From IMG/VR virus record IMGVR_UViG_3300043313_001352, positions 32,001 through 96,000 of that record: 64,000 nt of DNA. The stretch is one strand, 5' to 3'. This DNA is from a virus. Each line of letters begins with the position of its first letter. The stretch's first letter is position 1. The position numbers and the translations under genes are program-made. The notes beneath the pieces are model-generated. The model was given only the letters and a program-made list of their open reading frames with translations. It was not told the DNA's origin and ran no database searches. Below, piece after piece: positions 2,316 to 62,734 of the stretch.

Positions 2316-2326
2316 GCCCCGCGCAC

Positions 2327-2424: not shown

Positions 2425-2606
2425 GTACTCGGCTCCAGGCTAGCGCCAGCTGAAGGCCAGCTGGGCCGCCGCGGAACGTCACTGACGTTTACGCAGGCGG
2501 CCAACCCTCCAGCTGGGCTTCAGCGTTGCGCACTGTTGCGATGGCGGGACGGTGTGGTATGCTTACTTCAGTAAGCGACACAGAGACACAACGAAGGGAC
2601 ACCCCC

Positions 2607-3492: not shown

Positions 3493-3617
3493 TCGCGCCA
3501 GAACAGCACTGACGTTTACGCAGCTCGGCTCTCCTTCAGGGGCCTGGGGCGGTGCGAGGTGCCGCGACAGTGTGGTATGCTTACATCTGTAAGCAGGAAA
3601 CGACGAAAGGACACCCT

Positions 3618-23435: not shown

Positions 23436-23520
23436 CGTCGCTCTCCTCCACGTTGATTGGTGATTCACCTGTTGCCAACCTACCGAGCCCGCCCCGCTGG
23501 GCTAGGCTCTCCCCGCCCTC

Positions 23521-23871
23521 GGCAAGTCGGGGCAAGGCTTGGCTTGGCATGGCAGGGCAGGGCTCCCCCTAGGCCAGGCGCGGTCAGGCAGGGTTCGGCT
23601 CGGTCAGGCAGGGCAGGTTCGGCAGGGCGCGGTGTGCTGAGGTCCGGCGTGGCGAGGTGGGGCAAGGCACGGCAGGCTCGGAGCGGCTCGGCACGGCTAG
23701 GCATGGTGAGGCAGGCACACCCAGGCGGGGTCCGGCAGGGCACGTCAGCATTTGGCAGGGCATGGCAGGTGGGGCAAGGCTCGGTGTGGCCTGGCGGCGT
23801 ACGGCATGGTTGGGTTCGGTTCGGCGTGGCAGGCACGGTTAGGCATGGCAAGGTGAGGCGTGGCGAGGCGC
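23521..23871 (+). repeat. second GGY-NN pentamer mini-array (about 5-6 units)
   Basis: GGCAA GGCTT GGCTT GGCAT GGCAG...; GGCAGGY punctuation at about 23612, 23671, 23710, 23764, 23828. Confidence 0.9.
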
Positions 23872-23919
23872 GAGGGAACCCGCTCGCTCGTCGTCAGGGT
23901 GGTGTGTACTCTTCTCCCC

Positions 23920-24324
23920 ATGGGAGGGAACAAGCGCGGGTCGGTATTACGGTCACTGACCTGCCACTACTGCGGTGAGCGGGCCGAGGGCGAAGACCAC
24001 ATCGTGCCGCGAGCCGACCTGCCCAAGCCGCTCTCGAAGCTGCCCTACTGGTTCCGCGCCAACGACGTCGTTCCGGCCTGCCAGCCCTGCAACGGCGACA
24101 AGGCGTGGTTCAGGTCCGACTGCGTCTGCTCGCACTGCACATGGGCTTGGTCCACCGCTCACGCGCTGTTCCTGCCCGAGGGCTACACCGAGCGCGGTTG
24201 GGTCGCCATCCAGCAGAACCCGACCATCGCGATGCCGCTCGCGGTCCCGCGCCCCGACCGGTCCGCCTACCCAGGCACCCGCGAAGGCCGGTCCGACCGC
24301 GAGTCCCAGGCCCTGTCGAACTAG
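23920..24324 (+). CDS. HNH endonuclease
   Basis: CHYCG....EDHIVP...NDVVPACQPCNGDK. Confidence 0.85.
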   Translation: MGGNKRGSVLRSLTCHYCGERAEGEDHIVPRADLPKPLSKLPYWFRANDVVPACQPCNGDKAWFRSDCVCSHCTWAWSTAHALFLPEGYTERGWVAIQQNPTIAMPLAVPRPDRSAYPGTREGRSDRESQALSN

Positions 24325-39117: not shown

Positions 39118-39588
39118 TCAGCTGGCTTCACCCGCGCTGGCACTGAGGTCGGTGAGCACCTCGTTGGCGAACTCCGCCATGTGCTCGTAGCGCTTCTTGA
39201 AGGATCGCCAGTCACGGCGCATCTGGCGCAGCATCAGCTCGCGCTGGATCGGGTCCGTGATGACCTCCTCGATCGGCTCGTACGCCGAGGTCGGGCTGCC
39301 GTCTTCTCCACGGGTGACCCAGAACGCCCGGAGGTCGGCGCGCTTGTTGCCGACGTCGGCCTTGTACTTCACGCGCAGCAGGTTCCCGGCCTGGTGCAGC
39401 CGCCACTTGTGCGCGGCCACGTCGTCACGCCAGTCGAACCGGTGGTGCAGTGGGTGGTCAGGATTCGAGGCTTCCTCGACCACGACCTCTGGGGTCAGCA
39501 GCCCGCGCTTGTCTCGGATCGCCAGCAGCACGTCACGCAGGTTCTCACCAGCGCTGGGCACTGGGGTCTCGTCGGTTCCGTTCGTCAT
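39118..39588 (-). CDS. accessory protein of the RAMP/GGY-NN locus
   Basis: LTPEVVVEEA-x-NPDHPLH..F-x-W-x-D..AA..WRL-x-QA..L; GGAGGG RBS; directly downstream of the array on the same strand. Confidence 0.8.
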   Translation of the reverse strand: MTNGTDETPVPSAGENLRDVLLAIRDKRGLLTPEVVVEEASNPDHPLHHRFDWRDDVAAHKWRLHQAGNLLRVKYKADVGNKRADLRAFWVTRGEDGSPTSAYEPIEEVITDPIQRELMLRQMRRDWRSFKKRYEHMAEFANEVLTDLSASAGEAS

Positions 39589-39620
39589 TGCGTCCCTCCC
39601 GTTTCAGGTTGGTGAATCGT

Positions 39621-42600
39621 ACCTCACCACACCCGTCTCGTCAGTAGCCGCGCCGGGCCACGCCGAGCCGTGCCCAACCATGCCTTGCCAATCCGCGCCT
39701 GCCGCACCTTGCCGCACCCACCTATCCATGCCGGTCCCAGCCTCACCACGCCTGCCTGGCCGCGCCACGGCGCGCCTTGCCCGGCCATGCCTTGCCAACC
39801 CCGCCTGCCTTGCCCGGCCGCGCCTAGCCTTTCCACACCGCGCCTGCCCCGCCATGCCGAACCTGGTCACGCCTCGCCCAGACGGGCCTGCCAAGCCCAG
39901 CCCAGCCAAACCTTGCCTTGCCGCACCTGGCTGTGCCACGCCTGCCTGGCCGCGCCACACCCAGTCGTGCCAGGTCCCGCCTAGCCATTCCCTGCCTGCC
40001 TCGCCGTGCCTGACCGCACCCCACCATGCCTAGCCCCACCGCGCCTGCCATGCCGTACCAGACCTTGCCGAGCCAACCGGGGCTGCCTTGCCAAGCCCAC
40101 CGCACCTAGCCCTCCGCGCTGCGCCTGTCCATGCCTAGCCCTGCCTGCCTCGCCATGCCGTACCGGACCCTGCCGGACCGGACCACTTCGGAACACACCT
40201 AGCCATGCCCTGCCGAGCCTGCCAAGCCACGCCCCACCGGACCCGACCACGCCTAACGCCACCTGGCCCCGTCAGTCCGTACCTAGCCACGCCTGCCTTG
40301 CCGTGCCGTGCCGGGCCTAACCCCACCCGACCATGCCTTGCCTGCCGCGCCGCGCCCACCCGGCCATGCCTAGCCCCAGGTCACCTCGCCCAGCCTGCCT
40401 CGCCCAACCCGGCCATGCCTAGCCCTGTACGCCGCGCCACGCCTGCCGGACCAAGCCGCGCCTGACCGAACCAAGCCCCGCCGAGCCCACCTCGCCTGCC
40501 GGACCTGGCCGTGCCTGGCCTAGCCGCGCCCATCCATGCCCCGCCTGCCAAGACCCGCCGTGCCGTGCCATCGGTACCGAGCCCTACCAAACCACGCCTG
40601 CCGCGCCGTGCCAGACCGCTGCCGTGCCGACCACGCCTAACCTTGCCCCGCCTGCCGTGCCATGCCCAGTCGCACCCTGCCGCGATCGCCATGCCCAGCC
40701 GTGCCGTTCCTGCCATGCCGGACCTCGCCCTCCCGGCCATGTCGTGCCCTGCCCCGCCTGCCCTGCCGAGACTGGCCGAGCCGTGCCATGCCTTGCTCAC
40801 CTGGCCGTGCCGAGCCCGGACCCGCCTGCCTTGCCATGCCGGGCCGAGCCGTGCCTACCTGACCTAGCCCTGCCTGCCCAGCCACAGCTTGCCGTGCCTT
40901 GCCATCCGCGCCTCGCCTGCCGCACCCCACCTAGCCTGACCGAGTCATGCCCCGCCTGCCTCGCCTTGCCAGGACATGCCTTGCCACACCGCGGTGCACC
41001 AACGCCTCGCCTGCCAAGCCTTGCCTTGCCGTGTGCTGCCAAGCCGGGCCTGGACATGCCCACACGTGCCCTGCCGACCCGAACCACACCGAGCCATGCC
41101 TGCCGCGCCACGCCTTGCCTTGCCATGTCAACCGGGCCTGGCCCTGCCGCCCGCGCCTTGCCACGCCTGCCCGACCACACCACGCCTTGACCTACCCACG
41201 ATGCCCCGCCTGCCGGGCCTAGCCCTGCCTTGCCAGACGATCCTGGCCGCGCCTGCCCTGCCTTGAGCGCCTTGCCTCGACCCGCCGTGCCAGGACTGCC
41301 GGACCGTACCGTGCCCAGCCTCGCCACGCCGTACCTAGCCGCACCTGCCGGACCGTGCCTTGCCCAGCCACTCCATCCGTACCTAGCCTGCCGAGCCGTG
41401 CCTTGTCACGCCACGTCCCGCCCGGACTCGCCCCACCGAGCCATGCCTGCCCAGCCGAACCACTCCTAGCCTGGCCATACCCTGCGCTGCCTGCCGTACC
41501 GAGCCACGCCGTACCGCGGAAGCCACGCCGATGCCTTGCCCCGCCTGCCGAGCCGTTCCTGGCCATGTCCCGCCGCGCCGTGTGCTGCCCCGCCTAGCCC
41601 CGCCTGCCGCGCCATGCCTTGCCGACCTTGCCTCGCCCAACCGTGCCAGACCTGCCCCGCCGCACCTAGCTGCACCGCACCAAGACCCGCCTGCCGCGCC
41701 TGGCCGAACCTTGCCATCCTTGCCCTCCGCGCCGCACCGAGACACGCCTGCCCAGCCCCGTCGTGCCATGCCTGGCCGCGCCCCACCTGACCAAGCCTGC
41801 CGAGCCGGGCCGCACCATCCTCGCCATCCGGTGCCGTGCCCCGCCTTGCCTGCCGCGCCGCGCCCTGCCAAACCTAGCCAAGTCGTGCCCTGCCATGACG
41901 AGCCGTGCCGGACCTGCCGTACCTCGCCACGCCCAGCTCCGCCGAACCTCCCGAGCCCAGCCATGCCTGCCGAGCCGAGCCGCGCCCCGCTTCGCCCTGC
42001 CAGGCCCGACCTTGCCATGCCTGCCACACCCGGCCTTGCCACATACTGCCGCGCCCACCGATCCTGGCCGCGCCCAGCCATGCCTGCCCGGCCCCGCCGC
42101 ACCTCGCCATGCGCTGCGATACCACGCCACGCCCTCCGCGCCTGCCTGGCTCAGCCACACCGTCCCGTGCCACGTATCCCAGACCACGCCATGCCTGCCT
42201 CACCTAGCCCTGCCAAGCCCGGCCAATCCTGGACGTGCCGGACCGAGCCAAGCCTGCCGGACCACGACGTCCATGCCCTGCCGCTGCCATGTGATGCCCT
42301 CCGCACCGAGCCACGCCTGCCTGACCGCACCAGACCCGGCCGCACCCTGCCTAGACCACCGCGCCATGCCTGCCGTGCCGAGCCAGCCCTTGCCTCGTGA
42401 AGCCCAGCCCCGCCTCGCCGTGCCCAGCCAATCCGCGCCTGCCCCACCGATCCAAGCCCTGCCTTGCCTAGGCAAACCACGCCTGCCTGGCCTAGCCGGA
42501 CCAAGCCGAACCCCGCCTATCCCCGACCCGCCTGCCGGACCGCACCTTGCCGTCCGCGCCGCGCCCAACGATGCCCAGCCACGCCTGCCGAACCGTGCCA

Positions 42601-43622
42601 CGCCGTACGCCCCAAGCCGGACCCAACCTGCCCCGCCTCGCCTAGCCCAGTCTCGCCATGCCCAGCCTGGCCGTGCCCCGTTCACCGCGCCTGCCGAGCC
42701 TCGCCCCACCGACCTAGCCAACCCAGACCTAGCCTGCCGCGCCTCGCCCAGACAAACCATCCTCGCCGGACCGCCCGCACCTCGCTGCGCCAAGCCTGCC
42801 GCGCCACGTCATGCCACAGCTCGCCGCCCGTACCAAGCCTCGCCTGCCCCACCTCACCTAGCCAGGACGCGCCGGACAGCACCACGCCTCGCCACACCTT
42901 GCCTGCCGGGCCGCACCGAACGATGCCGAAAGCCACCAAGCCCAATCATCCGAGCCGCACCACGCCTGCCTTGCCCGGCCGGACCGGACCGCGCCGTACC
43001 CGCCCCTGACAAACCCTGCCTAGCCCTGCCAGCTCCCTGCCATGCCTGGCCTGCCAGACCACGCCCCTCCGAACCTGGCCACACCATGCCCTGCCTCGCC
43101 TGCCGTGCCCGACCCTGCCAACGACGCCTAGCCCTGACACACCATGCCCTGCCTGCCACGCCGTGCCCAACCAAGCCCGGCCGGTCCCTGCGATGCCTTG
43201 CCATGCCAAGCCTGCCGTGACCCGCCTTGCCACGCCCCGCTTGCCCCGACGCACCTGGCCTTGCCTAGCCTGCCGAACCTAGCCGAGCCACACCATGCGT
43301 AGCCCCGCCGGACCAACCCGAGCCCCGCCCTGCCTGCCGCGCCTGGCCGTTCCCAGCCCACCAAGCCACACCGTCCCGGCCAAGCCTGGCCGTGCCAAGC
43401 CTGCCCAACCGCGCCTGGCCAGACCAAGCCAAGCCGTGCCATCCGCGCCTTGCCGACCACTCCGTGCCGCGCCCCGCCTGCCGGGCCTGGACTCGCCGTG
43501 CCATGCCTAGACCTGCCTGCCATGCCGCGACGACCGGGCCAAGAATCCCATGCCCCGCCCCGCCTAGCCTGCCCCGCCGAGCGATGCCCTGCCGCGCCTA
43601 GCGTTGCCATCCCGTGCCTGCC
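39621..43622 (-). repeat. ~4-kb GGY-NN pentamer array, about 70-75 unique units delimited by GGCAGGC; putative guide-RNA array
   Basis: 5-nt periodicity of GGC/GGT plus a variable dinucleotide, reset every ~40-65 nt by GGC-A-GGC; ORFs in all frames are low-complexity. Confidence 0.95.
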
Positions 43623-43635
43623 GTGTCCGGACGTG

Positions 43636-43678
43636 GGACGAGGCAGGACGCACCCCCCAGTGGCGCCCTGCCTCGTCC
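43636..43678 (-). other. strong hairpin between the RAMP gene and the array
   Basis: 12-bp perfect stem GGACGAGGCAGG / CCTGCCTCGTCC. Confidence 0.8.
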
Positions 43679-43693
43679 GGCTCTGAGCTGAGG

Positions 43694-44377
43694 TTACTTG
43701 ACCTCGACCGAGCGCGTCGGGTCGATCATGAAGGTGCCCATGTCGCCCTTCTTCTCCGGGCGCCACTCACCGACGCCGACACCCAGGCCACCGGCCTCGA
43801 TCAGCGAGAGCACGCTCTCGCGGGTCAGCATCGACTTCACGTACGTCACCTCCAGCACCGTCGACCACTCGGTGAACTGCGGCCGGTAGCGCAGGTCGGT
43901 GCCGCCGTTGCCGACGCGCACGACGTCCTCGCGCATGATCGGCTCGCCCTCGATCCGGACCATCATCTGGCCCTCGGTCTTGGACATCTCGCCGGAGAAG
44001 AACAACGTCTGCCGGAGGCTGACCATGGTCACGCTCTTGTCGAAGAACCTCGCAGCGCTGACGGTCGCGGCCTTGAACGCGATCGAGGGGAACCCGTAGC
44101 CGCCGTCGTCCATCTTGTAGGCCGCGGCCTCGTAGTCGCCCTCGGGGTCCTTGGGCGCCTTCGGGCTCTTGCGGCCCTGCATCGCATCCAACATCTGCCT
44201 CTTCGCCTTCTCGCTGAACTTGTGCATGATCAACGGCGCGGAGCCGACGATCGGGATCAGCAGCGTCTCGGTGCCGATCCGGGAGATCTCGATCGCCGGT
44301 GCGCTCTCGTCCTCGGCGGGAGGAGGAGTCGCTGCGGTCTTCTTGGCTGCGGTCTTCTTGGCAGGCTTCGTGGCCAT
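43694..44377 (-). CDS. stand-alone Cas7/RAMP-like RNA-binding protein
   Basis: IVG-x-APLIMH strand, GFPSIAFKAA..SAA (compare RAMP IP-x-S-x-(L/F)KG), RP-x-F..W, and C-terminal Gly-rich loop GGLGVGVGEWRP...G-x-F. Confidence 0.75.
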   Translation of the reverse strand: MATKPAKKTAAKKTAATPPPAEDESAPAIEISRIGTETLLIPIVGSAPLIMHKFSEKAKRQMLDAMQGRKSPKAPKDPEGDYEAAAYKMDDGGYGFPSIAFKAATVSAARFFDKSVTMVSLRQTLFFSGEMSKTEGQMMVRIEGEPIMREDVVRVGNGGTDLRYRPQFTEWSTVLEVTYVKSMLTRESVLSLIEAGGLGVGVGEWRPEKKGDMGTFMIDPTRSVEVK

Positions 44378-44402
44378 GTGTCGTTCCGTCCTTGAGGTTG
44401 TG

Positions 44403-44442
44403 TTCCCCACCTTGGGGAATCAGGTGACGGCAACGTAGCACA
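44403..44442 (-). promoter_or_regulatory. putative promoter for the RAMP-array unit
   Basis: Minus strand TGTGC-TACGTT resembles the early promoter TGTGC-TAAACT at 15398; downstream hairpin TTCCCCA-3nt-TGGGGAA. Confidence 0.5.
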
Positions 44443-44471
44443 GGGACCTAGACCATGGTGTGGAGACTCGC

Positions 44472-50383: not shown

Positions 50384-53300
50384 CTAGGTGTTGAGGAAGG
50401 AGGTCGTCAGGTAGATGACGTCACCGTTGGCCACGGTGCCGATCGTGACTCCACCGCCAGAAGAGATCTGACAGTTGACTACCGTGTTGGTGCCGTTGCG
50501 GGCGAGGAGGTTGACGGAGATTACTGGGCGTCCAGCAGTCAGCGGGATCGTCGCCATGGTCGTACCCGAGCCTGAGGCGCGCGAGAAGGTTCCTCGGAAG
50601 TAGACCTGCTCTCCGATGATCTTGTACGCAGGCACGATGTTTCCAGCACCCCACCCCGCTCCGTACGCGAAGGAGTTCCAGCCACCACCTTGCGCGGAGT
50701 CGGCAGGCATGGACTCATCAGTGGCCCACTCGATCCTTCCGGCGTCGATGTTGAAGTACGCGACCAGCACCCAGTTGTTCGGCACCGTGAAGTCGCTGAG
50801 GTAGTTCGTGTACCGGAAGTTTGCGGCCAGTGAGGTCGCAGCAGACCCGAAGGGGATCTCGTACCAGAGAACGTCCCATGAACTCATAGGGACGCCTGCC
50901 GAGGTGACCGTCTTTTGAGTGGCCCCGCCGAAGTTCGGGATCACCGTGCCAACAGGCGGCATGGTGATCTCGAAGTAGCCAGAAGGGGCAAGGTTGACGC
51001 TTCTACCGATACTCATCGGCATGAACCGCGCAGACCACGAGATGTTGTAGTTGATGTCAACGACCTTGACACCGCCACCAGAGAGTTGTGACTGGGCACG
51101 GATGGAGTAGTACAGCTGCTCAAACGCCTTGCCAGTGAAGGAAGTCGCGCCAGCGCCTCCGACGTCCAGGGTCTCGAAGTGAGCGACACCGTCACCAGTG
51201 AGCTTGATCTTGGGGAACCCGCCAGTGCCTGGTGCGTTGGACTCCCATGAGGCTGGAGACGCAGCGATGAAGCTGGTGAGCAGCGGCGGCGCATCGGTGT
51301 CACCTACGGCACCGACGAAGTTCGGGGTGCTGACGGTCGAGTACGTCGCTCCGACTCCAGACGGCAGGAACGCAGGCTGCTCAGGCTGCAGGATGAAGTC
51401 AGTCCGGATCGGCGTGATGTTGAGCGCCGCCCGAGTCAGGTAGAACCGGAACGAGTTCACATCGTTGACAGTCCGTGCCGTGCCCTTACCTGCAGCCGGG
51501 TCTGGCAGGTCCGGCACCGTGACGGTCAGCCGAGCCCGCTTCTTCATCGTGATCGAGGCGTACGCCGAGGCGTTCGACTCCTGGATGGCCCCTTGGGAGT
51601 CGTACCAGGTGAACGCTCCCCACCAGATCGAGGGATCCGTGGCTGCCCAGGTGATCCCGGTGTAGTTGTAGAACTGCGGGCCGTCAGTGGCCGGAGCGGC
51701 CGTGAACCTCGTGAACGCACCAGTCAGCACATCTCCACACGCGCTGACACTCCGGGTCGCTGGGACCGCTGGGAACTCCAGGTCGACCAGACGCGCGGGC
51801 GAGGCAGCGTCAGTGAAGACGTAGTTGTTCACCGTCCCGTGGATCACCCAGATGTCCCGGTCGGTCGTCTCGAAGCCCATCCGCTGCGAGGAGCCGTAGG
51901 TGACACCGCACAGATCCTCGTCCTGGGCGAAGAAGGATGAGTTGATGGTCTTCGTGGCGCTCGGGGTGATCGTGGTGTCGGTGAAGGCCAAGGTGGCGAG
52001 TTCAATGGTGCCACCGGGCCATGGTGCGAACATGTTCCGCTTGGCTTGCGCGACCATGTGTGCGCGGGTAGCACCGGTCGCTGAGAAGCACCGTCCCAGC
52101 CGCCATTGCCAGAACCAGGAGAAGGTACCGTCCTGACGCTCGGCCTTCTTGATCGGGGCGAGAGTGCCCGAGGTGTTCATCGCTGAGTCGTCCCAGCTGG
52201 TGATCATGTACTTCTCGTCGCGGGCTCCAACGTACCCAGCGGTGCGGAAAAATCCGTTGGTGACCTGTCGCTCAAGCCCACCAACAGCGATGACTGAGTT
52301 GCCATGGAAGGTGTAGTACGCAGCTGTCTCCCCGTTGCTGTTCGCGACGCGGGGGACCTGCCACCAGGTGGTCCCCTTCTTCATCGTCGCGTCGTCGAAG
52401 AATGTGTTCGCACAACGGAACGAGCCAGTGGACTCAGCACTGTCCAGGTGGAAGCCCCAGAACGGGTCACACCACTGTCCCCGTGCGAACGCGGACTGGG
52501 GGTAGTCCGTGCCCAGCGAGGGACCTGAGGTGGCACCCACGGTCTGGGTCTGCAGGATGGTCTTGGAGCCCATCGCGAAGGTCGACTGGCCGCGGACATC
52601 CATCCCCTGGCCGACCGTGAGCCCGCGTGCCATGATCTGCGCGTCGATCACCGAAGGCTTCTGTGGATCGTTGGGCAGGTCGACCCGGATCGAGACACCA
52701 TCGGAGCCGTACTGCCTCAAACCCTCGCTGGACAGCTCCATCCGCTGCCCGGACTCAGCCGTCTTGATCTTCCCGATGATGGCGAGGTCAGCGTCCAGCT
52801 TCGCGCCCTTGATCTGAATCGCGTCCACCAGGTTGGTGTAGATGTAGCCGTCGGAGATGTCGGCCTCGGTGATCTGACGCAGGGTGGCCGAGCCAGCAGT
52901 ACCGGGAGCAGCGGAGTTGAACCCGCCACCGATCTTGGCGTCCTTGGCGACGATCCGCACGTAGTAGGTGACCGAGCCGTCCTTGACCAGGAAGGTGCCG
53001 TCCGCCAGCTGCTCACGGATCGTGTAGGAGGTCGCCGTGGTCTCGATCTGCAACGTCGCTGCCGATGGCGTGAACGTGGCACCGGTGGTAGCGCAGTGCA
53101 CCTCGTAGGTCACCGTGTCGTGGTTGAGGATCGCAGGCCACTTGATCCCCAGCGAGGAGACCGAGCCCGTCACCGTAGCTGCGGGTGAGGACGCAGGCGC
53201 AAGAGCATCGGGCGTGGCGGCGTTGTACGCCGAGTCAGCCGTGGCCGGGACGTTCGAGCTGGCCACAGTGAGCAACAGGTCGAAGATGCCAGAAGCAGCC

Positions 53301-56300
53301 GGGATGTCTGTCTCAGGCACCAGCGTGGTGTTCCAGCCTGTCTGCCAGGTGTCAGGTGGCAGGGTGTGTGAGATCTCGGCATCCACTGCTGTGATCTTCG
53401 GGTACTGCCAGTAGTTGCTGGCTGCCTGCGAGGTCAGGATGATGACCAACGTCCCGGTGGAGATGCGTCGAGCTACCCGAACCCCAATCGGCAAGTTGCC
53501 GGTGTTCACTCCCGTCGCGTTCGCGACTGAGGGCGGTGGACCTGCGTAGGAGTAACCGGATGTCTCCAGGTTGAAGGTCCCCTGGGTGGAGGCGTAGTTG
53601 AACCCCGAGAGCTTGATCTTGTACATCCGGTTGGTGAACGTGATCGGGGTGTCGATCACGATGTTGCCCGTCAGGTTCCCAGCCGCGTTCGCGTAGCTGG
53701 TCACGTCTCGGAACAGCTTCCCGTTGGCCCCGATCAGCGAGATCTTGGGCAGCGCCTGAGAGGCAGCCGTGTAGGAGGAACTCTTGGAGACCCCGGTGTA
53801 GGTGAAGGTGAGGTTCGAGTAGGTGATCTTGTTGGTGGTGTACAGCTCGGTGTTGGTCAGGTAGCCAGGCTCGGTCGGGACCCAGGGAGCCACTGGAGTT
53901 GCCACCACCGGTACGGCAGGTGCTGCTGCTCCAACAGGAGTCACCGTGGCGTAGTACGGAGTGACCGCCGTGATGCTGACACCCTGGGCACCAGCACCAC
54001 CGGTCGAGCCCTGTGCTCCCGTGTAGGAGACAGACCAGGCGAAGGTCTTGGTGAAGCTGACACCTCCGACCGTGATCGGAACCGTCAGAGTGCCGCTCTG
54101 GGTCACCAGAGCCGTCGTGACCGTGGCTGTGAACTGCGCCGTCAGACCGGGGTTGTTCTGGTACGTGATCGTCATGCCGGTCGGCGCACCAGTGATCGTG
54201 CCGATCGTGGCGGACTGCTGGACGGCGCCCTTGTACGCCAGCACCTGACTGGTTGTGAACCCGGCCACTGCAGCAGAGACGGTGCCGGGGAACACCTGAG
54301 CTTCGTTGGTCAGGACGACCGTGACTGCGTCCGCGCCTACGAAGCCAGAAGAGCCGTCGGAGATCTTGGAGATCGTCATGGTGTCGGTGACACCCGACGC
54401 GCCCGTTGCCTTGATGGCCAGAGTCTTCGCAGTCATGATCGCGCCGGTGACGGTCACGACATTGCCCGCCACCGAAGCGTAGATCGGAGCAGCACCAAAG
54501 GTGCCGCCGTCTGCACTGAACGTCCACGTCGAAATCGTGGTGCCGGTGGGAGTTCCGGTGATCACTGCCGTTGCAGGAGTTGTCGTAGCAGGTGCGACTG
54601 TGAAGTTGTCCAGCCTGCCAGCGTTGACGCCGAAGTTGTAGAGACCGTGTCGGGTGCCTGTGTAGGTGGCATCGGTGGCGGTCACTACCGTCACGTCGTT
54701 GATCTTGCCTTGCAGTGTTGAGCCAGACGCGGTGATGGAGACCTTGTCGCCGAGCACGGCCAATGCCGTGGACTGGCCAATGGTCGTGTACGTCTCGGCA
54801 CCGTACGCCCCTGCTGACCGATAGATCTGCAAGGACCCGTTGTTGTTGATGACCAGCACGTAGCCGTTCAGGTTGGTCAAGTTGTGCCGGAACGCTATCC
54901 CTCCAGAGAGTAGGCCGGTGATGACAAAGGAGACGGTGACGTCCGCGGTGCCACACTCCACGTCCGCGTAGGACTGACCACCCGTAGCGCCAGCCGTCGC
55001 GATGTACGCCTTGCCGCCGCTGACACCCCACACCGAACTGTTGTCGTTGCGCCACGCCTGACCCGTCTCAGTGGTACCGAGCGAGGTGGTTGAGTCTCCA
55101 CGGTTGAACGAGTCGAGGATCGTGGGAGCAGGAGCAGACAGTGCCTGTGTGGTGGCGGTCAGGTCAACGATCGTGGCCGCCGCGCCAGTCGCTCCACCCG
55201 CACCTGTGAAACTCAGCGCCCACGTGAAGACCTGGTTGAACGTCATTCCGCCCACGGTCACTGGGATGGTGAACGTTCCAGTCGCTGTTGCCAGAGCAGT
55301 CGTCACCGTGAAGGTGATCAGAGGTGCTGTAGTCCCGTTGTTGGTCACCGCTGCTGTGATGCCGGTAGCGCCACCAGTGATCGTTCCGACCGTGGCTACC
55401 TGAGCCACCGTGCCCTTGTACGCGATGACCGTCGTGGTCGCTGTCGTAGCCAGCGCGTTGGTGAGACCAGCAGGGAAGCTCTGTGACTCGTTGGACAGCA
55501 ACACGGTATAGGCGTCTGCTCCTGCGGGACCTGATGGTCCCGTGCCTCCGGTGGCGCCAGTTGCACCGGTGAGCACCTTCGCCACCGTGAGCGAGTCCGC
55601 GACACCCGCGTTGTTGCCTGCCCGCACCGCGATCGTGCTGGCCGTCATCGTCGCCCCGGTGATGGTCACCACGTTCCCGGCGATCGACACGCCAGGTGGT
55701 GCTGTCCCGGACCAGGCACCGCTGTTGACGCTGTAGTCCCACACCGTGATCGTGGTGTTGACCGGGGTGCCCGTGATGGTTGCCGTGGCCGGGGCGGTAG
55801 CACCGGTCCCACTTGCAGGAGAGACCAGAACCTGAGCCGTCGAGGTCAGCGTGATCGTGGCAGCGTTAGATCCAGGAAGACCCTGTGGACCTTGGGTCTG
55901 GGTCCACTCGTACAGGTTCGCATCGGTACTCTCGACGGCGGTCGTCTGGTTGTACGCGAGGCCCATGTGAGTGCCCACAGCGCTGTCGGTGACGTTCTTG
56001 ACAGCGTGGTAGACCTCCTTGATGAAGACCTTGATTCCGACAGCCTTGTTGTACGACAGGAGAGCGAGACGGACAGCAGTGGGAGCGCCCGCTGGAACGG
56101 TTGCCACACCGCTGTAGTCCGCGTAACTCGTGGTGATTCCACTGGGCTGCAAGCTAGTGAAGCGAACGACTTCTGTAGTACCGGCAGCGTTCAGCAGGAT
56201 CGCGTAGATCCCCGACCCATCCCCTATGACGGTGCTTCTCATCCTGATGCGGAGGTAGATCACGTCGCCCGGAACCACGTCAAGCGTCTGCATGGCCGTG

Positions 56301-59300
56301 GCGCCATTCGTTGCGAGAAGGCCAGAAGTGAGGGCGAGAGCACCTTCGGTTGCATCCCACGCGACCGTGTGAGCAGCGTTGTACCACTGCATCCCGTTAA
56401 CGCTGCGCTGCCAGTCAGCGGGCAGCGTCGGGTCAACCGTGTCCAGCTTGGCGAAGTCACCGTTACGGATGATGTCGTTGCCGTACTTGATCCAGGTGTA
56501 GGTGGGCTGTCCGTTAGGACCAATGGGACCTTGCACGCCCTGGTTTCCCTGGGGACCTTGGATCAGTGACCAGTCATAGTCGGTGTAGATGGACGACTCA
56601 GTGGCAGAGGACTTGTTGTAGGCCAAGCCCATGTAGATCTTGCCTGCAGGTAGGTCACTCATCCCCGTCGAAGGCGTGTCCGCGTACTTCAGCCACGTGT
56701 AGGTGGGCAGACCGTTCGCGCCGGTCGGACCTTGGATCCCTTGAGACCCGGTGGCACCGGTGAAGGCCAGCGACCAAGAGAAGATCTGGTTGAAGGTCAG
56801 CCCGCCTACGGTCACCGGGATGGTAAAGGTCCCCGTGGCCGTGCTCAGTGCTGTCGTCACGGTGAAGGTGATCAGTGGCGCGGTGGTGCCGTTGTTGGTC
56901 ACCGCTGCGGTGATGCCGGTAGCGCCACCGGTGATCGTCCCGACCGTAGCGGTTTGTGCCACCGTGCCCTTGTAGGCGATGACGGTGGAAGTGGCAGACC
57001 CCGCTAGAGCGTTGGTGAGCCCAGCAGCAAAGCCCTGAGACTCGTTGCTGAGGAGGACCGTGTAGGCGTCAGCACCTGCAGGTCCAGTGCTGCCAGTAGA
57101 GCCGGTAGCACCGTCGGAGACCTTCGCTACGGTCAGCGTGTCACTGTTGCCGGAAGCCCCGATCGCCTTCACCGCGATGGTCTTGGCCGTCATGGTCGAG
57201 CCAGTGATCGTGACCACGTTCGATGCAGCGGGCCTGGAGACACCAGGTGGAACGGTCCCGGAGAAGGCAGCTCCGTCCACGCTGTACTGCCAGCCTGCCG
57301 TGGAGTCCGGGATCGTGGTGTTCGTCGCTACAGCCGTCACTGTCGCAGTCGCGGGTGTGATCGTTCCGCCTACACCAACTGCCAGCACCTGCGTGCTCGC
57401 TGTCAGGTCGACAGTCGAGGCAGGAGCACCAGCCACACCCTGGGAGCCTTGTGGACCCTGAGGGCCTTGGATGAGCGACCACTCATAGTCGGTAGGAACG
57501 GTCGTCTCGGTAGCAGTGGTCTTGTTGTAGGCAATACCGATGTAGGTCTTGCCTGCGGGCAGGTCGGAGATGTCAGCGACGATCGGGGTAGCGCTGGTGG
57601 CGTACTTGATCCAGGTGTAGGTGGGCTGTCCGTTCGGACCAGTCGGACCTTGCAGACCGGTGTTGCCCTGTGGGCCAGTAGTCAGGTTCCACTCATAGTC
57701 GGTGTAGATGCTGGACTCGGTAGCAGTGGTCTTGTTGTAGGCGATACCCAGGTACGGCTTGCCAGCAGGCAGGTCGCTCATCCCGGTGGTAGGCGTGTCG
57801 GCGTACTTGACCCAGGTGTAGAGCTGCTGCCCGTTCGGCCCGATCGGACCTTGCACACCTTGAGACCCGGTCAGACCCAGCGACCAGGAGAAGGTCTTGG
57901 TGAAGGTGATCCCACCGACGGTGATCGGCACCGTCAACGAACCTGAGGTGGTCACCAGCGCGGTGGTCACCGTGACGGTGAAGCCAGCCGCCGTCGTGCC
58001 GTTGTTGGTCAGTGCCGTAGTCAGACCAGTGACCTGCCCGGTGATCGTGCCGATCGTGGCCGTCTGCTGAACAGTCCCCTTGTACGCCAGCACCTGGCTG
58101 GTGGTTGATCCAGCGACAGCTGCGGTGGTGGAGCCAGGGAACACCTGGGCTTCGTTGGTCAGCTGCACGGTGTAGGCATCAGCGCCCGCACTGCCGTCCA
58201 TGGACTTGGCCACGGTCAAGGTGTCAGCGACCCCGTTGGCGTCGGACATGCGCACCGCGATCGTGCGCGCGGTCACGGTGCCGCCGGTGACGGTGACCAC
58301 GTTGCCGCTGCGCGAGACGCCCGTGGGGACCGAGGTCGAGAACACCCCACCGTCGACGCTGTAGTCCCACACCGTGATCGTGGTGTTGATCGGGGTGCCG
58401 GTCACCACGGCCGTCGTGGGCGTGGTGGCCCCTCCGGTCGCCGGGGAGGTCAGAACCTGGCTGGTCGAGGTCAGGCTGATGGTCGCAGCGGGAGTGCCAG
58501 GCACGCCGTTGGCACCGATCGGCCCGGCGAACGACAACGACCAGCTGAACACCTGGTTGAACGTGATGCCGCCTACCGTGACCGGGACGGTGAAGGTCCC
58601 GTTGGCAGTGACCAGCGCGGTAGTGACCGTGAACGTGATCAGGGGTGCCACAGTGCCGTTGCTGGTCACCGCGGCGGTGATGCCCGTGGCTCCGCCGGTG
58701 ATCGTCCCGACGGTCGCGGTCTGCTGCACCGTCCCCTTGTAGGCGATCACCGTCGTCGTCGCCGTTGCGGCCTGAGCGTTCGTGGTACCAGCGGTGAAGG
58801 TCTGCGACTCGTTCGAGAGCACGACGGTGTACGCGTCGGCTCCTGCCGCACCGGTCGCACCGGTCGAGCCGTGCGCGGAGACCGAGTAGGCAGTCGACGT
58901 CGTGGTGTCGGAGTAGGTGGTGATCGTGCGCGTCCACAGGAACTGTCCAGGGATGGTCGCCTGCGGCGTCGATTGCCACGTCCCGACTGGTGCCGTCGTG
59001 CCGGTCGAGCCGACCTGGTAGGTGACCGCAGTGCCGGTGACACCGACACCTGGTGCCCCGGTGGAGCCCGAGGTGCCGTGTGCGGAGACTGAGTACGCCG
59101 TCGAGCTGGTGGTGTCGGAGAAGGTCGTGACCGTCCTGGTCCACAGGAACTGCCCAGGGGAGGTGGCCTGCGGACTGGACACCCAGGTGCCTGTCGGCGC
59201 AGTGGTGCCGGTTGAACCCACCTGGTAGGTGACGGTGGTGCCGGTGACGCCAACGCCCGGCGCTCCGGTACCGCCAGTGCTGCCGGTGGCGCCGTCGGAG

Positions 59301-62300
59301 ACCTTGACCACGGTGAACGTGTCGGCCAGCCCAGCAGCATCGGCCATCTTGATCGTGATGGCCCTCGCCGTCATGGTCGTGCCGGTGATCGTCACGACGT
59401 TGCCGGTGCGACTCACACCCGCAGGAAGCGCGGGCAAGAAAGTGGCGCTACCGTCCACGCTGTAGGTCCAGGCCGTGATGGTGGTGTTCGTGGCGACACC
59501 TGTCACGGTGGTCGTTGCGGGAGTGGTGGCTCCCCCGGCTGCAGGGACCGCCAACACCTGCGAGGTAGCAGTCAGCGAGATGGTCGGAGCAGCGGCACCA
59601 GGCACACCCTGGGAGCCTTGTGGACCTTGCGGTCCTTGGATCAGCGACCAGGTGTAGTCGGTAGGAACCGTGGTCTCCACGGCAGTGGTCTTGTTGAACG
59701 CGAACCCGATGTAGGGCTTGCCTGCCGGGGTATCGACCAGCCCGCCGCCATTGATGTCATCGGCGTACTTCACCCAGGTATAGGTGGGCTGACCGTTAGC
59801 CCCAGCAGGCCCCTGGATGCCCATGTTCCCCTGAGGCCCCTGGATCAGGCTCCAGTCATAGTCCGTGTAGATGCTGGACTCGGTAGAGCTGGTCTTGTTG
59901 TATGCCACACCCATGTAGGTCTTACCGGCAGGCAGATCGCTCATCCCAGTAGTCGGCGTATCGGCGTACTTCAACCACGTGTAGAGGCTTGCTCCGTTAG
60001 CACCAGTCGGACCCTGGATGCCTTGTGATCCTGTTGGACCTGGTGGTCCTTGGATGAGCGACCACTCATAGTCCGTGGTGATCGTGCTCTCTGCAGCCGT
60101 GGTCTTGTTGTACGCGATGCCCATGTAGGTCATGCCGACCGGAGAGTCACTGATCTGTGGAGTGGTGGGCGCTCCGTTGGGCGCGTACTTGATCCAGGTG
60201 TAGGTCGGTTGCCCGTTGGGACCGATCGGCCCCTGGATCCCCGTGTTCCCCTGGGGTCCCTGAATCAACGACCATTCGTAGACGTTGTAGTTGACGCTGT
60301 CCTCGGTCTGGGTCGTCTTGTTGTAGGCGATGCCCATGTACTTCTTGCCCGTGGGGTCATCGTTCATCCCCGTGGTGGGGGTGTCCGCGTACTTGATCCA
60401 GGTGTAGGTCGGCAAGCCATTCGCACCGACAGGCCCCTGGATGCCCTGTGAACCCTGAGGGCCTTGCGGACCCTGGATGAGTGACCACTGGTAGTCGGTG
60501 GGGATCGTCGTCTCGGTGGGCGTGGTCTTGTTGAACGCGAGACCGATGTAGGTCATCCCAGCCGGTACATCCACGATCTGGCCAGCGGTGGGGTTGCCGT
60601 TCGGTGCGTACTTGACCCACGTGTACGTGGTGACACCATCAGCCCCAGGAGTACCTGGGATGCCCTGGTTTCCTTGTGGACCCTGGATCAAGCTCCAGGT
60701 GTAGTCGGTGTACACCGTGGTCTCAATCGCTGAGGTCTGCCCAACCGCGATCCCCATCCAGGTCTTGCCCGTAGGAGAGTCAGACATGTCAGCAGGGATC
60801 GGAGTAGCGCTGGATGCGTACTTCAACCAGGTGTAGTAGGTGATCCCCGGAGAGCCTTGGATGCCCTGAGAGCCAGCGGGTCCTGGTGGGCCTTGGATCA
60901 AGGCCCACTCATAGTCGGTCGTGACCGTGGACTCTGTGGCCGTCGTCTTGTTGTACGCGATGCCGATGTAGCTCATCCCGACCGGCGAGTCGCTGATCTG
61001 GCCGGTGGTGGGTGCTCCGTTGGGCGCGTACTTGATCCAGGTGTAGGTCGGTTGCCCGTTGGGGCCAGTGGGTCCTTGCACACCGGTGTTGCCCTGGGGG
61101 CCTTGAATCAACGACCAGCCATAGTCGGTGTAGATGCTGGACTCGGTGGAGCTGGTCTTGTTGTACGCCAGACCCATGTAGGTCTTCCCGGCTGGGAGAT
61201 CGCTCATCCCAGTCGTCGGTGTGTCGGCGTACTTCAGCCAGGTGTACATCGGCTGGCCGTTGGGACCGGTCGGTCCTTGGATTCCTTGTGACCCGACCGC
61301 GCCAGCGAGGCTCAGCGACCAGGCGAACGCCTTGGTGAACGACTTGCCGTCTGCCGTGATAGGCACCGTCAAGGTGCCGTTGACGGCCGTCAGCGCCGAC
61401 GTGACATCAATCGTGAAGCCCGCCGTGGTGGTGCCGTTGTTGGTCAACGCGGTGGAGATACCTGCCACCTGGCCGGTGATCGCACCGATCGTGGCCGGGA
61501 TCTGGGTGACGCCCTTGTAGGCGATCACCTGGCTGGTGGCGCTCGCGCTCACCGCAGCTGTGGCCGTTCCCGCGAAGCTCTGCGCCTCGTTGGTGAGCAG
61601 GATCGTGTACGCATCGGCGCCAGCCGGTCCGGTGCCACCTGCTGCGCCGTCGGAGATCTTCGCGATGGTCATGGTGTCTGCGTTGCCAGCAGCGTCAGCT
61701 GCCTTCACCGAGATCGTCTTGGCCGTCATCGTGGCACCAGTGATGGTCACGCTGTTGCCGGTGCGGCTCACTCCGGCAGGGACCGTTCCGGAGTAGGTGG
61801 CTCCGTCCACCCCGTAGGTCCAGTTGATGATCGTGGTGTTGATCGCTGCCCCGGTCACCGTGGTCGTGGCTGGGGTCGTCGTACTACCGCTCGCAGGCAC
61901 GGCCAGCACCTGCGAAGTAGCCGTCAAGGTGATGATGGCTGCGTCGGATCCAGGTGGGCCTTGGAACAAGCTCCACTCATAGTCGGTGGCGACGGCGCTC
62001 TCGACGTCGGTGCTCTTGTTGTAGGCGATACCGATGTAGGTCTTGCCTGTCGGGGAGTCGCTCAGCCCAGCTCCGGTGGCGCTGTCGCCGTACTTGATCC
62101 AGGTGTAGGTGGGCTGACCGTCGGGACCCGCCGGGCCGGGTATGCCGGGCTCGCCGGGCTCTCCGGGCGTACCGGCGGGACCAGGCGTGCCACGGATCGG
62201 ACCGATGTTCGACCACCCGGTGCCGGTCCACTTCACACCATCGCCGACCGCAGCAGCGGTGCCGTCCATGGCCGGAGGGACCCAGCCAGGCACCGGCGTA

Positions 62301-62734
62301 CCGACGATCCAGATCTGGCCCGGTAGGGGAGCGGTGGGTGCCGTCTGGGGTGTGGTGCCGATGATGCTGACGCTGGCGCCGCTGTTGCCCGTCAGACCGG
62401 ACGGACCAACCGGTCCCGTGGGTCCGGTGGCTCCGCGCGGCCCGGTCGCACCGATCTGGCCTTGCGCACCCTGGGATCCTGTCGGCCCCAGCGGACCAGG
62501 GACGCCGACCGGGCCAGTCGGTCCGGTCGGACCCAGAGCACCCGGTGTGCCGACCGGCCCGGTAGGGCCAGGAACACCCTGTGGCCCCTCGGTGCCGGGG
62601 ATGACCAGGTCGATCTCATTGGGATCGCTGGAGACCAGGTTGACGCTGACCCGCGGCTCTCCGGAGATGATGTCCAGCTCGATCTCCCCCAGGACGCTGG
62701 ACAGCGTCACATTGTCCGTATTGTCAACGGTCAT
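50384..62734 (-). CDS. giant modular tail fibre / host-specificity protein (4116 aa)
   Basis: Collagen GXY linkers, 13 YTW(I/L/V)KY modules, 6 T(I/V)-x-LT..(S/T)Q-x-L modules, 6 ADA(Y/V)T..L-x-NE-x-Q modules, FN3-like and tip domains. Confidence 0.9.

What the first reader, a model, noticed from the sequence alone, without database searches (positions are those of the whole stretch)
39118..44442. Stand-alone Cas7/RAMP-like gene plus ~4-kb GGY-NN array plus accessory gene: candidate non-CRISPR RNA-guided system
Seen: on the minus strand, a putative promoter, a 227-aa gene, a strong hairpin, ~4 kb of GGY-NN pentamers, then a 156-aa gene, all inserted among tail genes. No cas1/2/3/5/6 genes or CRISPR repeat-spacer array occur in the window. 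Knowledge: the protein has RAMP hallmarks (PLIMH strand, FP-x-x-AFK helix start, C-terminal Gly-rich loop), and Cas7-family RAMPs polymerise along RNA at a fixed nucleotide step. Inference: each subunit grips a constant GGY and displays the variable NN, so each unit would be a guide whose target is spelled non-contiguously by its dinucleotides, plausibly against competing phages or host genes. I recall a similar architecture being described recently under the name VIPR, but cannot verify that here.
Basis: partly seen in the sequence, partly recalled or inferred. Interest (0 to 1): 0.98.

Follow-up and report, generated by a model that had tools for sequence, protein, structure and literature searches.

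The report
Phage VIPR system with giant guide array
This uncultured 114-kb actinobacterial phage carries a VIPR system, a CRISPR-like RNA-guided DNA silencer first described in 2026. It is a lone Cas7-like protein, a partner gene and an unusually large 4-kb array of about 72 five-letter-repeat guides, one of which appears aimed at a suspected bacterial anti-phage gene.

Summary
On the minus strand lie a 227-aa gene, a strong hairpin, about 4 kb of GGY-NN pentamers and a 156-aa gene.

- **Protein.** It is a Vipr protein. It matches the solved SUSP1 Vipr (profile E 3e-12; hhalign 97.8%), keeps the residues that read GGY, and folds as a Cas7/Csm3-type RAMP (pLDDT 94).
- **Array.** It has 693 pentamers (G .94, G .91, Y .95, NN about 2 bits each). 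They form 72 units of 8-14 repeats, separated by a 4-nt GGCA step. This is the "staggered" vrRNA architecture of the VIPR preprint.
- **Linkage.** 53 of 57 related viral loci carry a same-strand array, and all 57 carry a homologue of the 156-aa gene, which is winged-helix-like and unrelated to SUSP1 Vap1.

So this is a new member of a published class, not a new class. This scan has already noted VIPR loci in at least 292 other genomes.

What stands out here:
- The array is the largest of the 58 related loci compared.
- The genome holds two extra solo arrays.

Most guides were never searched for a target outside two phage genomes, and none of those searched apart from this one gave a match. Transcription and binding are untested.

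The parts
44378..44465 (-). Conserved leader and probable promoter region of vipr. It holds TGCTACGTT (extended -10-like), a small hairpin (TTCCCCAAGGTGGGGAA) and an AAGGA ribosome-binding site.
   Evidence: 100% identical over 87 nt to the relative G001/L002, while the flanking genes are 90-92% identical. The promoter assignment is an inference; the sigma-70 consensus scan was negative.
43694..44377 (-). vipr: 227-aa Vipr protein, a stand-alone RAMP/Cas7-like protein, with a lysine/alanine-rich N-terminal tail (residues 1-30).
   Evidence: phmmer against PDB 36pp 'SUSP1 Vipr protein' gives E 1.6e-5; a profile gives E 3.2e-12. hhalign probability is 97.8%. The GGY-reading residues are conserved. 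AF2 pLDDT is 94. Foldseek puts Csm3/Cas7 on top. It matches phrog_4652.
43636..43681 (-). Strong stem-loop between the vipr stop codon and the first repeat, with no U-tract. It is a candidate attenuator, processing element or stability element.
   Evidence: -45.8 kcal/mol, z -2.8. The stem is kept in L002 although the loop differs.
39650..43640 (-). vrRNA array: 693 GGYNN pentamers in 72 units of 8-14 repeats, punctuated by a 4-nt GGCA step (66 exact GGCAGGC). This is the 'staggered' architecture.
   Evidence: No Rfam family matches. ORFs inside it have no Pfam family. No 18-mer from the array is among those occurring three or more times in the genome.
40146..40219 (-). One unit of 14 repeats. 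Its NN series, read with one skipped base, spells (antisense, in codon phase) the P-loop motif of Bub-type E1 (DUF6791+ThiF) genes.
   Evidence: 25/28, 24/28, 24/28 and 23/28 matches in the four homologues found among 401 Actinomycetota genomes. Nothing comparable appears for other skip rules or other guides. Controls gave 0 hits.
39118..39588 (-). vap: 156-aa Vipr-associated protein, with a winged-helix-like N-domain and a C-terminal helical hairpin.
   Evidence: A homologue lies next to vipr in 57 of 57 related viral loci. It matches phrog_15946. AF2 pLDDT is 87. Winged-helix matches have Z 5-6.3, which is weak. There is no similarity to SUSP1 Vap1.
23492..23897 (+). Second GGYNN array of about 7 units with GGCA junctions, 16 kb from vipr.
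   Evidence: An orthologous array with one unit fewer is present in G001.
2325..2425 (-). Solo vrRNA: a single tract of 12-13 pentamers followed by a G+C-rich terminator-like hairpin.

Best explanation
The locus is a VIPR (Viral Interference Programmable Repeat) system of the 'staggered array' kind, carried by an uncultured 114-kb, 67% G+C phage of an actinobacterium.

How it most likely works:
- vipr, the array and vap are read from the minus strand.
- The array RNA is cut or partitioned at the GGCA|GGY register shifts into about 72 vrRNAs of 8-14 pentamers.
- Vipr protomers polymerise along each vrRNA, one per pentamer. They bury GGY (H52, R165, E204-W205-R206) and expose the NN pairs.
- The filament binds double-stranded DNA whose sequence reads NN-x-NN-x (one base skipped per repeat) and blocks transcription there.
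- The winged-helix-like Vap assists on DNA.

The guides are directed at DNA other than the phage's own. At least one seems directed at a host Bub-type E1 gene, in a suspected anti-phage operon. The others have no identified target and may be aimed at rival phages or other host genes.

Shown here: homology, fold, conserved residues, array grammar, gene linkage, absence of self-targets.

Inferred from the published SUSP1 work: RNA binding, the filament, the 1-nt-skip reading, repression.

My own inference: processing at GGCA, and the role of the hairpin.
For: - Protein homology to the founding Vipr and conserved GGY-reading residues.
- RAMP fold.
- Array statistics that match the published vrRNA grammar of 9-16 YNNGG repeats: GGY conserved, NN near 2 bits.
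- A GGCA|GGY junction conserved down to 38% protein identity, as GGCAGGC in high-GC phages and GGCAGGT in lower-GC phages. This fits the preprint's fig. S18 legend on staggered arrays with a 1-nt overlap.
- Arrays on the vipr strand in 53 of 57 loci and vap in 57 of 57.
- Terminator hairpins after arrays in L052, L057 and the solo vrRNA.
- NN positions are 49.7% G+C in a 67% G+C genome. They fit codon positions 1-2 (KL 0.10) far better than 2-3 (0.74) or 3-1 (1.10).
- No self-target in the phage's own genome, as published for other VIPRs.
- One 14-repeat guide matches Bub E1 genes at 82-89% of NN positions, only under the 1-nt-skip rule.
Against: - No RNA data exist for this phage or for any staggered array. 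The preprint confirmed only the ribozyme arrays and single-vrRNA systems by sRNA-seq.
- Targets: outside the phage's own genome and its relative G001, only about ten guides were searched for a target, and only one of those has a candidate target. That match is imperfect (25/28 at best) and lies in sampled genomes that need not be the host.
- Six exact-pattern scans of public collections with this phage's guides gave nothing beyond chance. A seventh, with a guide of Mycobacterium phage Saal, found nothing either.
- 42 of 72 units contain one or more internal 4-nt steps at variable positions, so many units may be decayed or read differently.
- A uniform NN composition fits as well as codon positions 1-2 (KL 0.088).
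- The winged-helix assignment of Vap rests on Z 5-6, below the level the tool calls distinctive.
Confidence: 0.88

Rival explanations
1. The system is chiefly an anti-defence guide library. The mega-array would silence host immune and mobile-element genes by reading their most conserved motifs in codon phase, rather than attacking rival phages. This is a rival only as to the targets; the machinery is the same VIPR.
For: - Guide 40219 reads the invariant [AV]IVGLGGTGSYILD P-loop of DUF6791+ThiF genes that sit next to DUF6527/BubE.
- The gene is rare, present in 4 of 401 sampled genomes.
- Bub operons are suspected anti-phage systems (bioRxiv 10.1101/2024.11.21.623953).
- There is no target in the close relative G001.
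- Other agents of this scan report similar readings in other genomes (unchecked leads, not support).
Against: - It rests on one guide of about 72, and the best match is 25/28.
- No second guide converges on the same operon, unlike the published cases where many vrRNAs hit one element.
- Bub has not been shown to protect against phage.
- A similar claim on another genome partly fell on later checking.
- Conserved motifs are easy to hit with degenerate patterns. The 18-base scan, for example, gave chance-level hits, several of them in one aldose-epimerase-like family.
Confidence: 0.35
2. The 4-kb tract is a largely decayed or non-guiding repeat. It could be a G-rich, G-quadruplex-prone satellite, an RNA sponge or scaffold for Vipr, or an assembly artefact. 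Only a few units, if any, would act as guides.
For: - 58% of units carry internal frame slips at variable positions.
- Related phages with short arrays have clean units of 49, 54 or 59 nt.
- GGN3 repeats can form two-tetrad quadruplexes (general knowledge).
- Almost no targets were found.
Against: - The same unit lengths, slips included, recur in an independently assembled relative, so this is not an assembly artefact.
- The aligned parts of the two arrays are about 95% identical while the genomes are about 77% identical. NN positions diverge less (6-7%) than the freely exchangeable C/T position (11%).
- No 18-mer from the array is among those occurring three or more times in the genome.
- The preprint itself notes frequent internal degeneracy of vrRNAs.
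Confidence: 0.07
3. It is a remnant or minimal form of a class 1 CRISPR-Cas system: a solo Cas7 with a degenerate CRISPR array.
For: The best structural matches are Csm3/Cas7 of types III and VII.
Against: - There is no repeat-spacer array and no Cas1.
- The period is 5 nt, not 60-79 nt.
- Sequence homology is to Vipr, not to any Cas7 family. Pfam finds nothing, while the profile hits PDB 36pp.
- The family has 3,633 representative clusters of its own.
Confidence: 0.02

Closest known systems
VIPR systems with staggered vrRNA arrays (bioRxiv 10.64898/2026.04.26.720920, fig. S18 legend)
   Same: A stand-alone Vipr RAMP, one vap gene and a GGY/NN pentamer array in a phage. Adjacent vrRNAs overlap by one base, which here shows as GGCA|GGC (a 4-nt step). 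There is no 3' tail and no ribozyme between units.
   Different: - Size: about 72 units over 4 kb, against 0.2-1.3 kb in most of the 57 relatives compared.
- Gene order: vipr-array-vap instead of the usual vipr-vap-array.
- More than half of the units have internal 4-nt steps.
- The genome holds two further arrays elsewhere.
- The VIPR type number (I-VII) could not be assigned, because the preprint's supplementary tables are not held.
- The preprint did not confirm this architecture by RNA sequencing.
Type II VIPR of Escherichia phage SUSP1 (KT454805.2; PDB 36pp; bioRxiv .720920, .720927 and 10.64898/2026.10.15.759431)
   Same: The Vipr proteins are homologous, with the same GGY-reading residues. 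The vrRNAs have a similar number of repeats. A small accessory gene lies next to vipr. Solo vrRNAs occur elsewhere in such genomes. Neither system targets its own genome.
   Different: - Identity is only 22%, and only the C-terminal 60-70 residues align significantly.
- SUSP1 has four vrRNAs, each with an invariant pseudoknot tail. This locus has none.
- Vap here shows no similarity to Vap1 (hhalign probability 0.3%).
Class 1 CRISPR-Cas backbone subunits (Cas7/Csm3/Cmr4)
   Same: RRM core, thumb hairpin and glycine-rich loop. The protein polymerises along a guide RNA at a fixed step, with thumbs interrupting the pairing.
   Different: The step is 5 nt, with 3 bases hidden and 2 read. There are no CRISPR repeats, no Cas6 or Cas5, no adaptation genes and no effector nuclease in the locus.
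TIGR-Tas tandem interspaced guide RNA systems
   Same: A phage-borne, non-CRISPR array of short guides beside a single RNA-binding effector.
   Different: TIGR arrays have an 18-nt period and a Nop-domain Tas protein. Neither is present here.

Membership tests
VIPR | Vipr protein with a RAMP fold (RRM core, thumb, G-loop) | tested here: met
   AF2 model pLDDT 94, pTM 0.85. Foldseek puts Csm3/Cas7 chains on top, E 1e-6 to 1e-4, probability 1.0, TM about 0.5.
VIPR | Sequence homology to a characterised Vipr | tested here: met
   PDB 36pp_D 'SUSP1 Vipr protein': phmmer E 1.6e-5, profile E 3.2e-12. hhalign against the SUSP1 genome-encoded protein: probability 97.8%, E 1.1e-12.
VIPR | Residues that read G1, G2 and Y3 (SUSP1 H17, R138, D177, W178, R179) | tested here: met
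   Alignment A5 pairs H52, R165, E204 (D to E), W205 and R206. All but E204 are invariant across the seven aligned sequences. This is by alignment only, not by structure of a complex.
VIPR | Adjacent same-strand array of GGY/NN pentamers, 9-16 per vrRNA | tested here: met
   693 pentamers with GGY 91-95% and NN 1.95-1.98 bits. 72 units of 8-14 steps.
VIPR | Array linked to the protein family in other genomes | tested here: met
   53 of 57 related viral loci, always on the same strand as vipr. Also in the cultured Gordonia phage UmaThurman and Mycobacterium phage Saal.
VIPR | Accessory vap gene beside vipr | tested here: met
   A homologue is present in 57 of 57 loci. It is not related to Vap1 of SUSP1.
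VIPR | vrRNAs expressed and co-purifying with Vipr | not testable with these tools
   No RNA or protein data exist for this uncultured phage.
VIPR | Targets read by the 1-nt-skip rule | tested here: inconclusive
   One guide of the roughly ten searched outside phage genomes matches Bub E1 genes at 23-25 of 28 positions, only under skip 1. All other searches were negative or at chance level.
VIPR type II (SUSP1-like) | Invariant structured 3' tail (pseudoknot) after each repeat tract, and a vap1 gene | tested here: not met
   Units abut directly through GGCA|GGC. Vap is unrelated to Vap1.
CRISPR-Cas class 1 | Repeat-spacer array and cas1/cas2 or other cas genes | tested here: not met
   No Cas1 (PF01867) in the genome, while the search rang in 7 control genomes. 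No regularly spaced repeats of 18 nt or longer.
TIGR-Tas | 18-nt-period array with a Nop-domain effector | tested here: not met
   The period is 5 nt. Neither protein has a Pfam family, Nop domains included.

The most novel reading that the evidence does not exclude
The 4-kb array is a guide library that a large, probably lytic phage uses against its host's immune genes. The wobble-skipping code would let one guide recognise a whole gene family through its invariant motif (here the Bub E1 P-loop). The conserved GGCA register shift would be a punctuation mark that yields unit-length guides without tails, ribozymes or a Cas6-like enzyme. Both points would go beyond what the VIPR preprints have shown.
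Probability: 0.3. Interest if true: 0.75.

Novelty: new member of a known kind. Interest (0 to 1): 0.5.

Why it matters
VIPR is only months old as a concept and has been worked out in one E. coli phage family. This locus adds three things.

**Scale.** It shows how far the system can be scaled: about 72 unique guides in one operon, plus solo arrays. That makes it a good source for defining the grammar of the "staggered" arrays, whose processing nobody has yet measured.

**Tractable relatives.** The same Vipr-Vap-GGCA clade sits in cultured, widely distributed teaching-collection phages: Gordonia phages UmaThurman, Pipp, ODay and Ecliptus, and Mycobacterium phage Saal with 26 further Mycobacterium phage records. 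There the genes are annotated as hypothetical, and part of the array is annotated as a protein-coding gene. This gives tractable systems in Mycobacterium smegmatis and Gordonia terrae.

**A host target.** If the Bub-directed guide is real, it would link VIPR to the silencing of host defence and give the first hint of what opposes Bub operons. It would also illustrate why a code that skips the wobble base is useful to a virus.

Tried and rejected
**Target searches that found nothing**
- Own genome, and the 177-kb relative G001, under skip rules 0-3 and two ways of reading the 4-nt steps. No excess for skip 1.
- The 57 related loci. The only hits were array-to-array matches under skip 3.
- Exact gapped patterns in viral contigs for four guides of this phage and one of Mycobacterium phage Saal.
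- Two metagenome scans. One gave 0 hits. The other gave 16 hits for an 18-base pattern, about the chance number, several of them in one aldose-epimerase-like family.
- Guide 40293 in 401 Actinomycetota genomes: 0 hits.
- Guide 40219 in 121 genomes of the order of G098: no further hit.

- The claim was that an orphan-array guide matches the adjacent "HNH endonuclease" gene.
- The site is that guide's best match in the genome, at 19/24. Only 1% of permuted guides do as well.
- With about 80 guides that is expected by chance.
- Pfam and PHROGs find no HNH family in that ORF.

The DNA of the many public Bub E1 homologues with the AIVGLGGTGSYILD motif, which could match 26/28, could therefore not be read.

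**Readings rejected**
- Coding repeat: ORFs in the array have no Pfam family and no period 3.
- Known RNA family or hammerhead-interspersed array: no Rfam match.
- CRISPR remnant and TIGR-Tas: see the membership test.

**Left unsettled or unused**
- Vap: Foldseek gave no match with E below 0.001. The winged-helix reading rests on VIA-align Z 5-6.3 only.
- megablast of 9 kb of the window against GenBank phages found nothing. The host genus is unknown.


Full report
**1. The observation**

The window is bases 32001-96000 of a 114,034-bp IMG/VR virus record, 67% G+C and estimated 92% complete.

- a 227-aa ORF (43694..44377) with an AAGGA ribosome-binding site;
- a stem-loop of -45.8 kcal/mol right after its stop codon (z -2.8, no shuffle as stable);
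- a G-rich tract from about 43640 down to 39650;
- a 156-aa ORF (39118..39588) with a GGGAGG ribosome-binding site.

The tract has a clear 5-nt period. Autocorrelation is 0.52 at lag 5 and 0.24 at lag 3, and the peak drifts to 49, 54 and 59 at longer lags.

A dynamic-programming parse gives 820 steps: 693 pentamers, 121 tetramers and 6 hexamers. In the pentamers the five positions are G 94%, G 91%, C/T 95% (C 74%, T 21%), then two positions with 1.95 and 1.98 bits of entropy.

Seventy-three of the tetramers are GGCA, and 66 occur as exact GGCAGGC. They divide the tract into 72 units of 8-14 steps, with modes at 11, 10 and 9.

No 18-mer from the tract is among those occurring three or more times in the genome. 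A simple detector finds nothing comparable in shuffled genomes. The tract is therefore not a plain amplified satellite and is far beyond chance.

**2. The protein is a Vipr**

Pfam finds nothing and PHROGs gives only a family of unknown function.

Against the sequences of solved structures, the protein matches one entry, 36pp "SUSP1 Vipr protein", with E 1.6e-5. A profile of 65 relatives raises this to 3.2e-12.

I located the SUSP1 gene in its genome (KT454805.2). The profile aligns to it with 97.8% probability.

In a joint alignment, the residues that the cryo-EM paper identifies as gripping the GGY bases all have counterparts. SUSP1 H17, R138, D177, W178 and R179 pair with H52, R165, E204, W205 and R206 here. 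All but the D/E position are invariant.

The AlphaFold model is confident (pLDDT 94). Its best structural matches are Csm3/Cas7 subunits of type III and type VII CRISPR complexes (E about 1e-6, probability 1.0, TM about 0.5).

The family is very large: 4,033 hits in the 90% clusters and 3,633 representative clusters at 50%.

**3. Linkage**

Fifty-seven related loci were fetched from viral contigs, at 28-96% identity.
- 53 have a GGY-period-5 array beside the gene, always on the same strand.
- All 57 have a homologue of the 156-aa protein.
- The usual order is vipr-vap-array. The window, its close relative L002/G001, L003 and L004 have vipr-array-vap.
- Arrays are mostly 0.2-1.3 kb. The window's is 4.07 kb by that detector (about 4.0 kb on the parse of section 1) and the largest, followed by G001 (3.6 kb), L004 (about 2.6 kb from first to last repeat block) and L032 (2.25 kb).

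The GGCA step is kept throughout the clade. It appears as GGCAGGC in high-GC phages and GGCAGGT in lower-GC ones where most pentamers are GGT-NN. In several relatives the spacings are clean at 49, 54, 59 or 64 nt. In L052, L057 and the window's solo vrRNA, the array is followed by a terminator hairpin.

Cultured phages carry the same system. Gordonia phages UmaThurman, Pipp, ODay and Ecliptus, and 27 Mycobacterium phage records including Saal, have a Vipr homologue; the array and neighbouring genes were read only in UmaThurman and Saal.
- In UmaThurman, the CDS annotated as gp40 is the array, and gp41 is vap.
- In Saal, the array lies upstream and overlaps the annotated start of gp51.
- In both, the locus sits next to the immunity cassette.

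Cellular hits are in Actinomycetota and a few other phyla. The window's phage has only distant cultured relatives: its primase is at most 31% identical to those of Microbacterium, Streptomyces and Mycobacterium phages. The host genus is unknown.

**4. What is known**

The system is in print as VIPR (bioRxiv 10.64898/2026.04.26.720920).
- It consists of a Vipr RAMP, vrRNAs of 9-16 YNNGG repeats and a vap gene, mostly in phages.
- The NN pairs read double-stranded DNA with one skipped base per repeat.
- The outcome is transcriptional repression, and the natural targets are rival mobile elements.
- There are seven types and several array architectures, including "staggered arrays with overlapping vrRNAs", where vrRNAs derive from positions overlapping by 1 nt. 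That architecture was not among those confirmed by RNA sequencing.

Related papers add the following.
- The companion paper gives the filament structure.
- A third paper shows Vap1 is needed in vivo and describes solo vrRNAs.
- A fourth recovers VIPR arrays from sequence periodicity.

The GGCA|GGC junction is exactly what a 1-nt overlap of GGCAG and GGCNN looks like. I therefore file the locus under the staggered kind.

It is not type II. There is no tail after each tract, and Vap has no similarity to SUSP1 Vap1. The type number cannot be assigned without the supplementary tables, which are not held.

**5. Vap**

The model (pLDDT 87) has three helices and a beta wing at residues 12-111, then a long helical hairpin.

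The best structural matches are winged-helix DNA-binding domains: forkhead, MarR, ArsR, Fur and ESCRT-II winged helices. They score only Z 5-6.3, and Foldseek finds nothing significant.

This agrees with the preprint's statement that several vap families are winged-helix-like, but it is weak evidence.

**6. Comparison with the relative G001 (177 kb, complete)**

| Region | Identity to G001 |
|---|---|
| Whole genome (82% aligned) | about 77% |
| Leader upstream of vipr | 100% (87 of 87) |
| vipr | 92% |
| Aligned parts of the array | about 95% |
| vap | 81% |
| Next 600 nt downstream | 73% |

- The arrays differ mainly by gain or loss of whole units. They share the odd unit lengths (43, 53, 135 and others), which rules out assembly error.
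- Mismatches per repeat position are G1 3%, G2 6%, Y3 11%, N4 6%, N5 7%. The guide letters change less than the freely exchangeable C/T position.
- Only 14 of 67 in-phase guide segments are letter-identical in both phages.

**7. Irregularities**

Thirty units are clean, 32 have one internal 4-nt (rarely 6-nt) step at a variable position, and 10 have more.

Many of these steps look like repeats lacking the pyrimidine (GGAT, GGAG, GGGA). Whether such units work is unknown. The preprint notes frequent internal degeneracy of vrRNAs.

**8. Targets**

The NN positions are 49.7% G+C in a 67% G+C genome. Their dinucleotide usage fits codon positions 1-2 of the phage's own genes far better than the other two phases or bulk DNA, although a flat distribution fits equally well.

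No guide matches the phage's own genome or G001 beyond what other skip rules give. Seven public exact-pattern scans (six with this phage's guides, one with a guide of phage Saal) found nothing beyond chance.

One search with mismatches allowed did hit.
- The 14-repeat unit at 40219..40146 matches one place in 401 sampled Actinomycetota genomes at 25 of 28 positions. The backwards-pattern control gave no hit. My rough expectation by chance is about 0.003.
- The site is antisense and in codon phase, with every skipped base on a wobble position.
- It encodes VIVGLGGTGSYILD, the nucleotide-binding loop of a 394-aa DUF6791+ThiF protein. The next gene downstream is a DUF6527 protein.
- This is the gene pair of Bub operons, bacterial ubiquitination-like systems suspected but not shown to be anti-phage.

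The genome with the 25/28 match (G098) is flagged unpublished. The claim of 25/28 rests on it, although the identical protein is listed in NCBI nr as a MAG ThiF-family adenylyltransferase of an Actinomycetota bacterium.

Further points on this match:
- Only 4 of the 401 genomes have the gene. The other three, which are not flagged, match at 24, 24 and 23 of 28 at the same motif.
- In 120 public homologues the motif is almost invariant, most often AIVGLGGTGSYILD.
- In 73 kb around three of these genes, no other guide and no other skip rule gives anything comparable.
- A second 14-repeat guide gave no hit in the same genomes.

I read this as a credible lead, about 40%, that this guide is aimed at Bub-type E1 genes. 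It is also the only direct support here for the 1-nt-skip rule in this clade. It is one guide of about 72, and a similar claim elsewhere in this scan partly failed a later check.

**9. Verdict**

The locus is a new member of a known and very recently described kind.

It is notable for three things: the largest array among the relatives compared, the clear GGCA punctuation, and a possible host-defence target.

This scan has already noted VIPR loci in at least 292 other genomes, including arrays of about 40 and about 57 guides. The size here is therefore extreme but not unique.

Noticed in passing
window 23492..23897 (+) and 2325..2425 (-): Two further GGYNN arrays lie far from vipr. One has about 7 units with GGCA junctions; its orthologue in relative G001 lacks one unit. 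The other is a single 12-13-pentamer vrRNA with its own terminator hairpin. They resemble the 'solo vrRNAs' of the October 2026 preprint.
   Followed up: partly
window 23989..24023 (+), inside ORF 23860..24324: This is the best match in the genome for one orphan-array guide: 19 of 24 positions, codon-phased, over the peptide GEDHIVPRADLP. Only 1% of permuted guides do as well, but with about 80 guides that is expected by chance. Neither Pfam nor PHROGs calls the ORF an HNH endonuclease.
   Followed up: yes
L072 (Gordonia phage UmaThurman, NC_031249.1) 3612..3935; L073 (Mycobacterium phage Saal, NC_023580.1) 2596..2850: GenBank annotation treats vrRNA arrays as protein-coding. UmaThurman 'gp40' is the array, and the annotated start of Saal gp51 runs into its upstream array. 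In both temperate phages the VIPR locus sits beside the integrase/repressor/excise cassette.
   Followed up: partly
window 44287..44377 (-), residues 1-30 of Vipr: An N-terminal lysine/alanine/proline-rich tail (AKK and PAKK repeats, as in actinobacterial nucleoid proteins) is present only in the closest relatives. Most homologues are 205-207 aa and lack it. It may add unspecific nucleic-acid affinity.
   Followed up: no
window 50384..62734 (-): A giant 4,116-aa ORF with collagen triple-helix repeats near its N-terminus and internal repeats (18-mers present six times). It is probably a huge tail or fibre protein.
   Followed up: partly
genome 28.3-52.9 kb (window up to about 20.9 kb), e.g. window 2472..2490 (+): A dispersed 18-mer box (CACTGACGTTTACGCAGC and variants, 9 or more copies) on the plus strand. 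One copy lies back to back with the solo vrRNA. Other readers of this scan noted it as a promoter-linked box.
   Followed up: no
window 39589..39650 (-): The spacer between the last repeat and vap is conserved in G001. It holds a TACGAT (-10-like) motif about 35 nt before the start codon, so vap may have its own promoter rather than depend on read-through of the 4-kb array.
   Followed up: no
L089, L094, L096, L097 (metagenome contigs): The 18-base pattern of guide 41797 hits four homologous genes at the motif YLHGAHITGW, in an aldose/hexose-phosphate epimerase-like context. The total number of hits was at chance level, so this was not pursued.
   Followed up: partly
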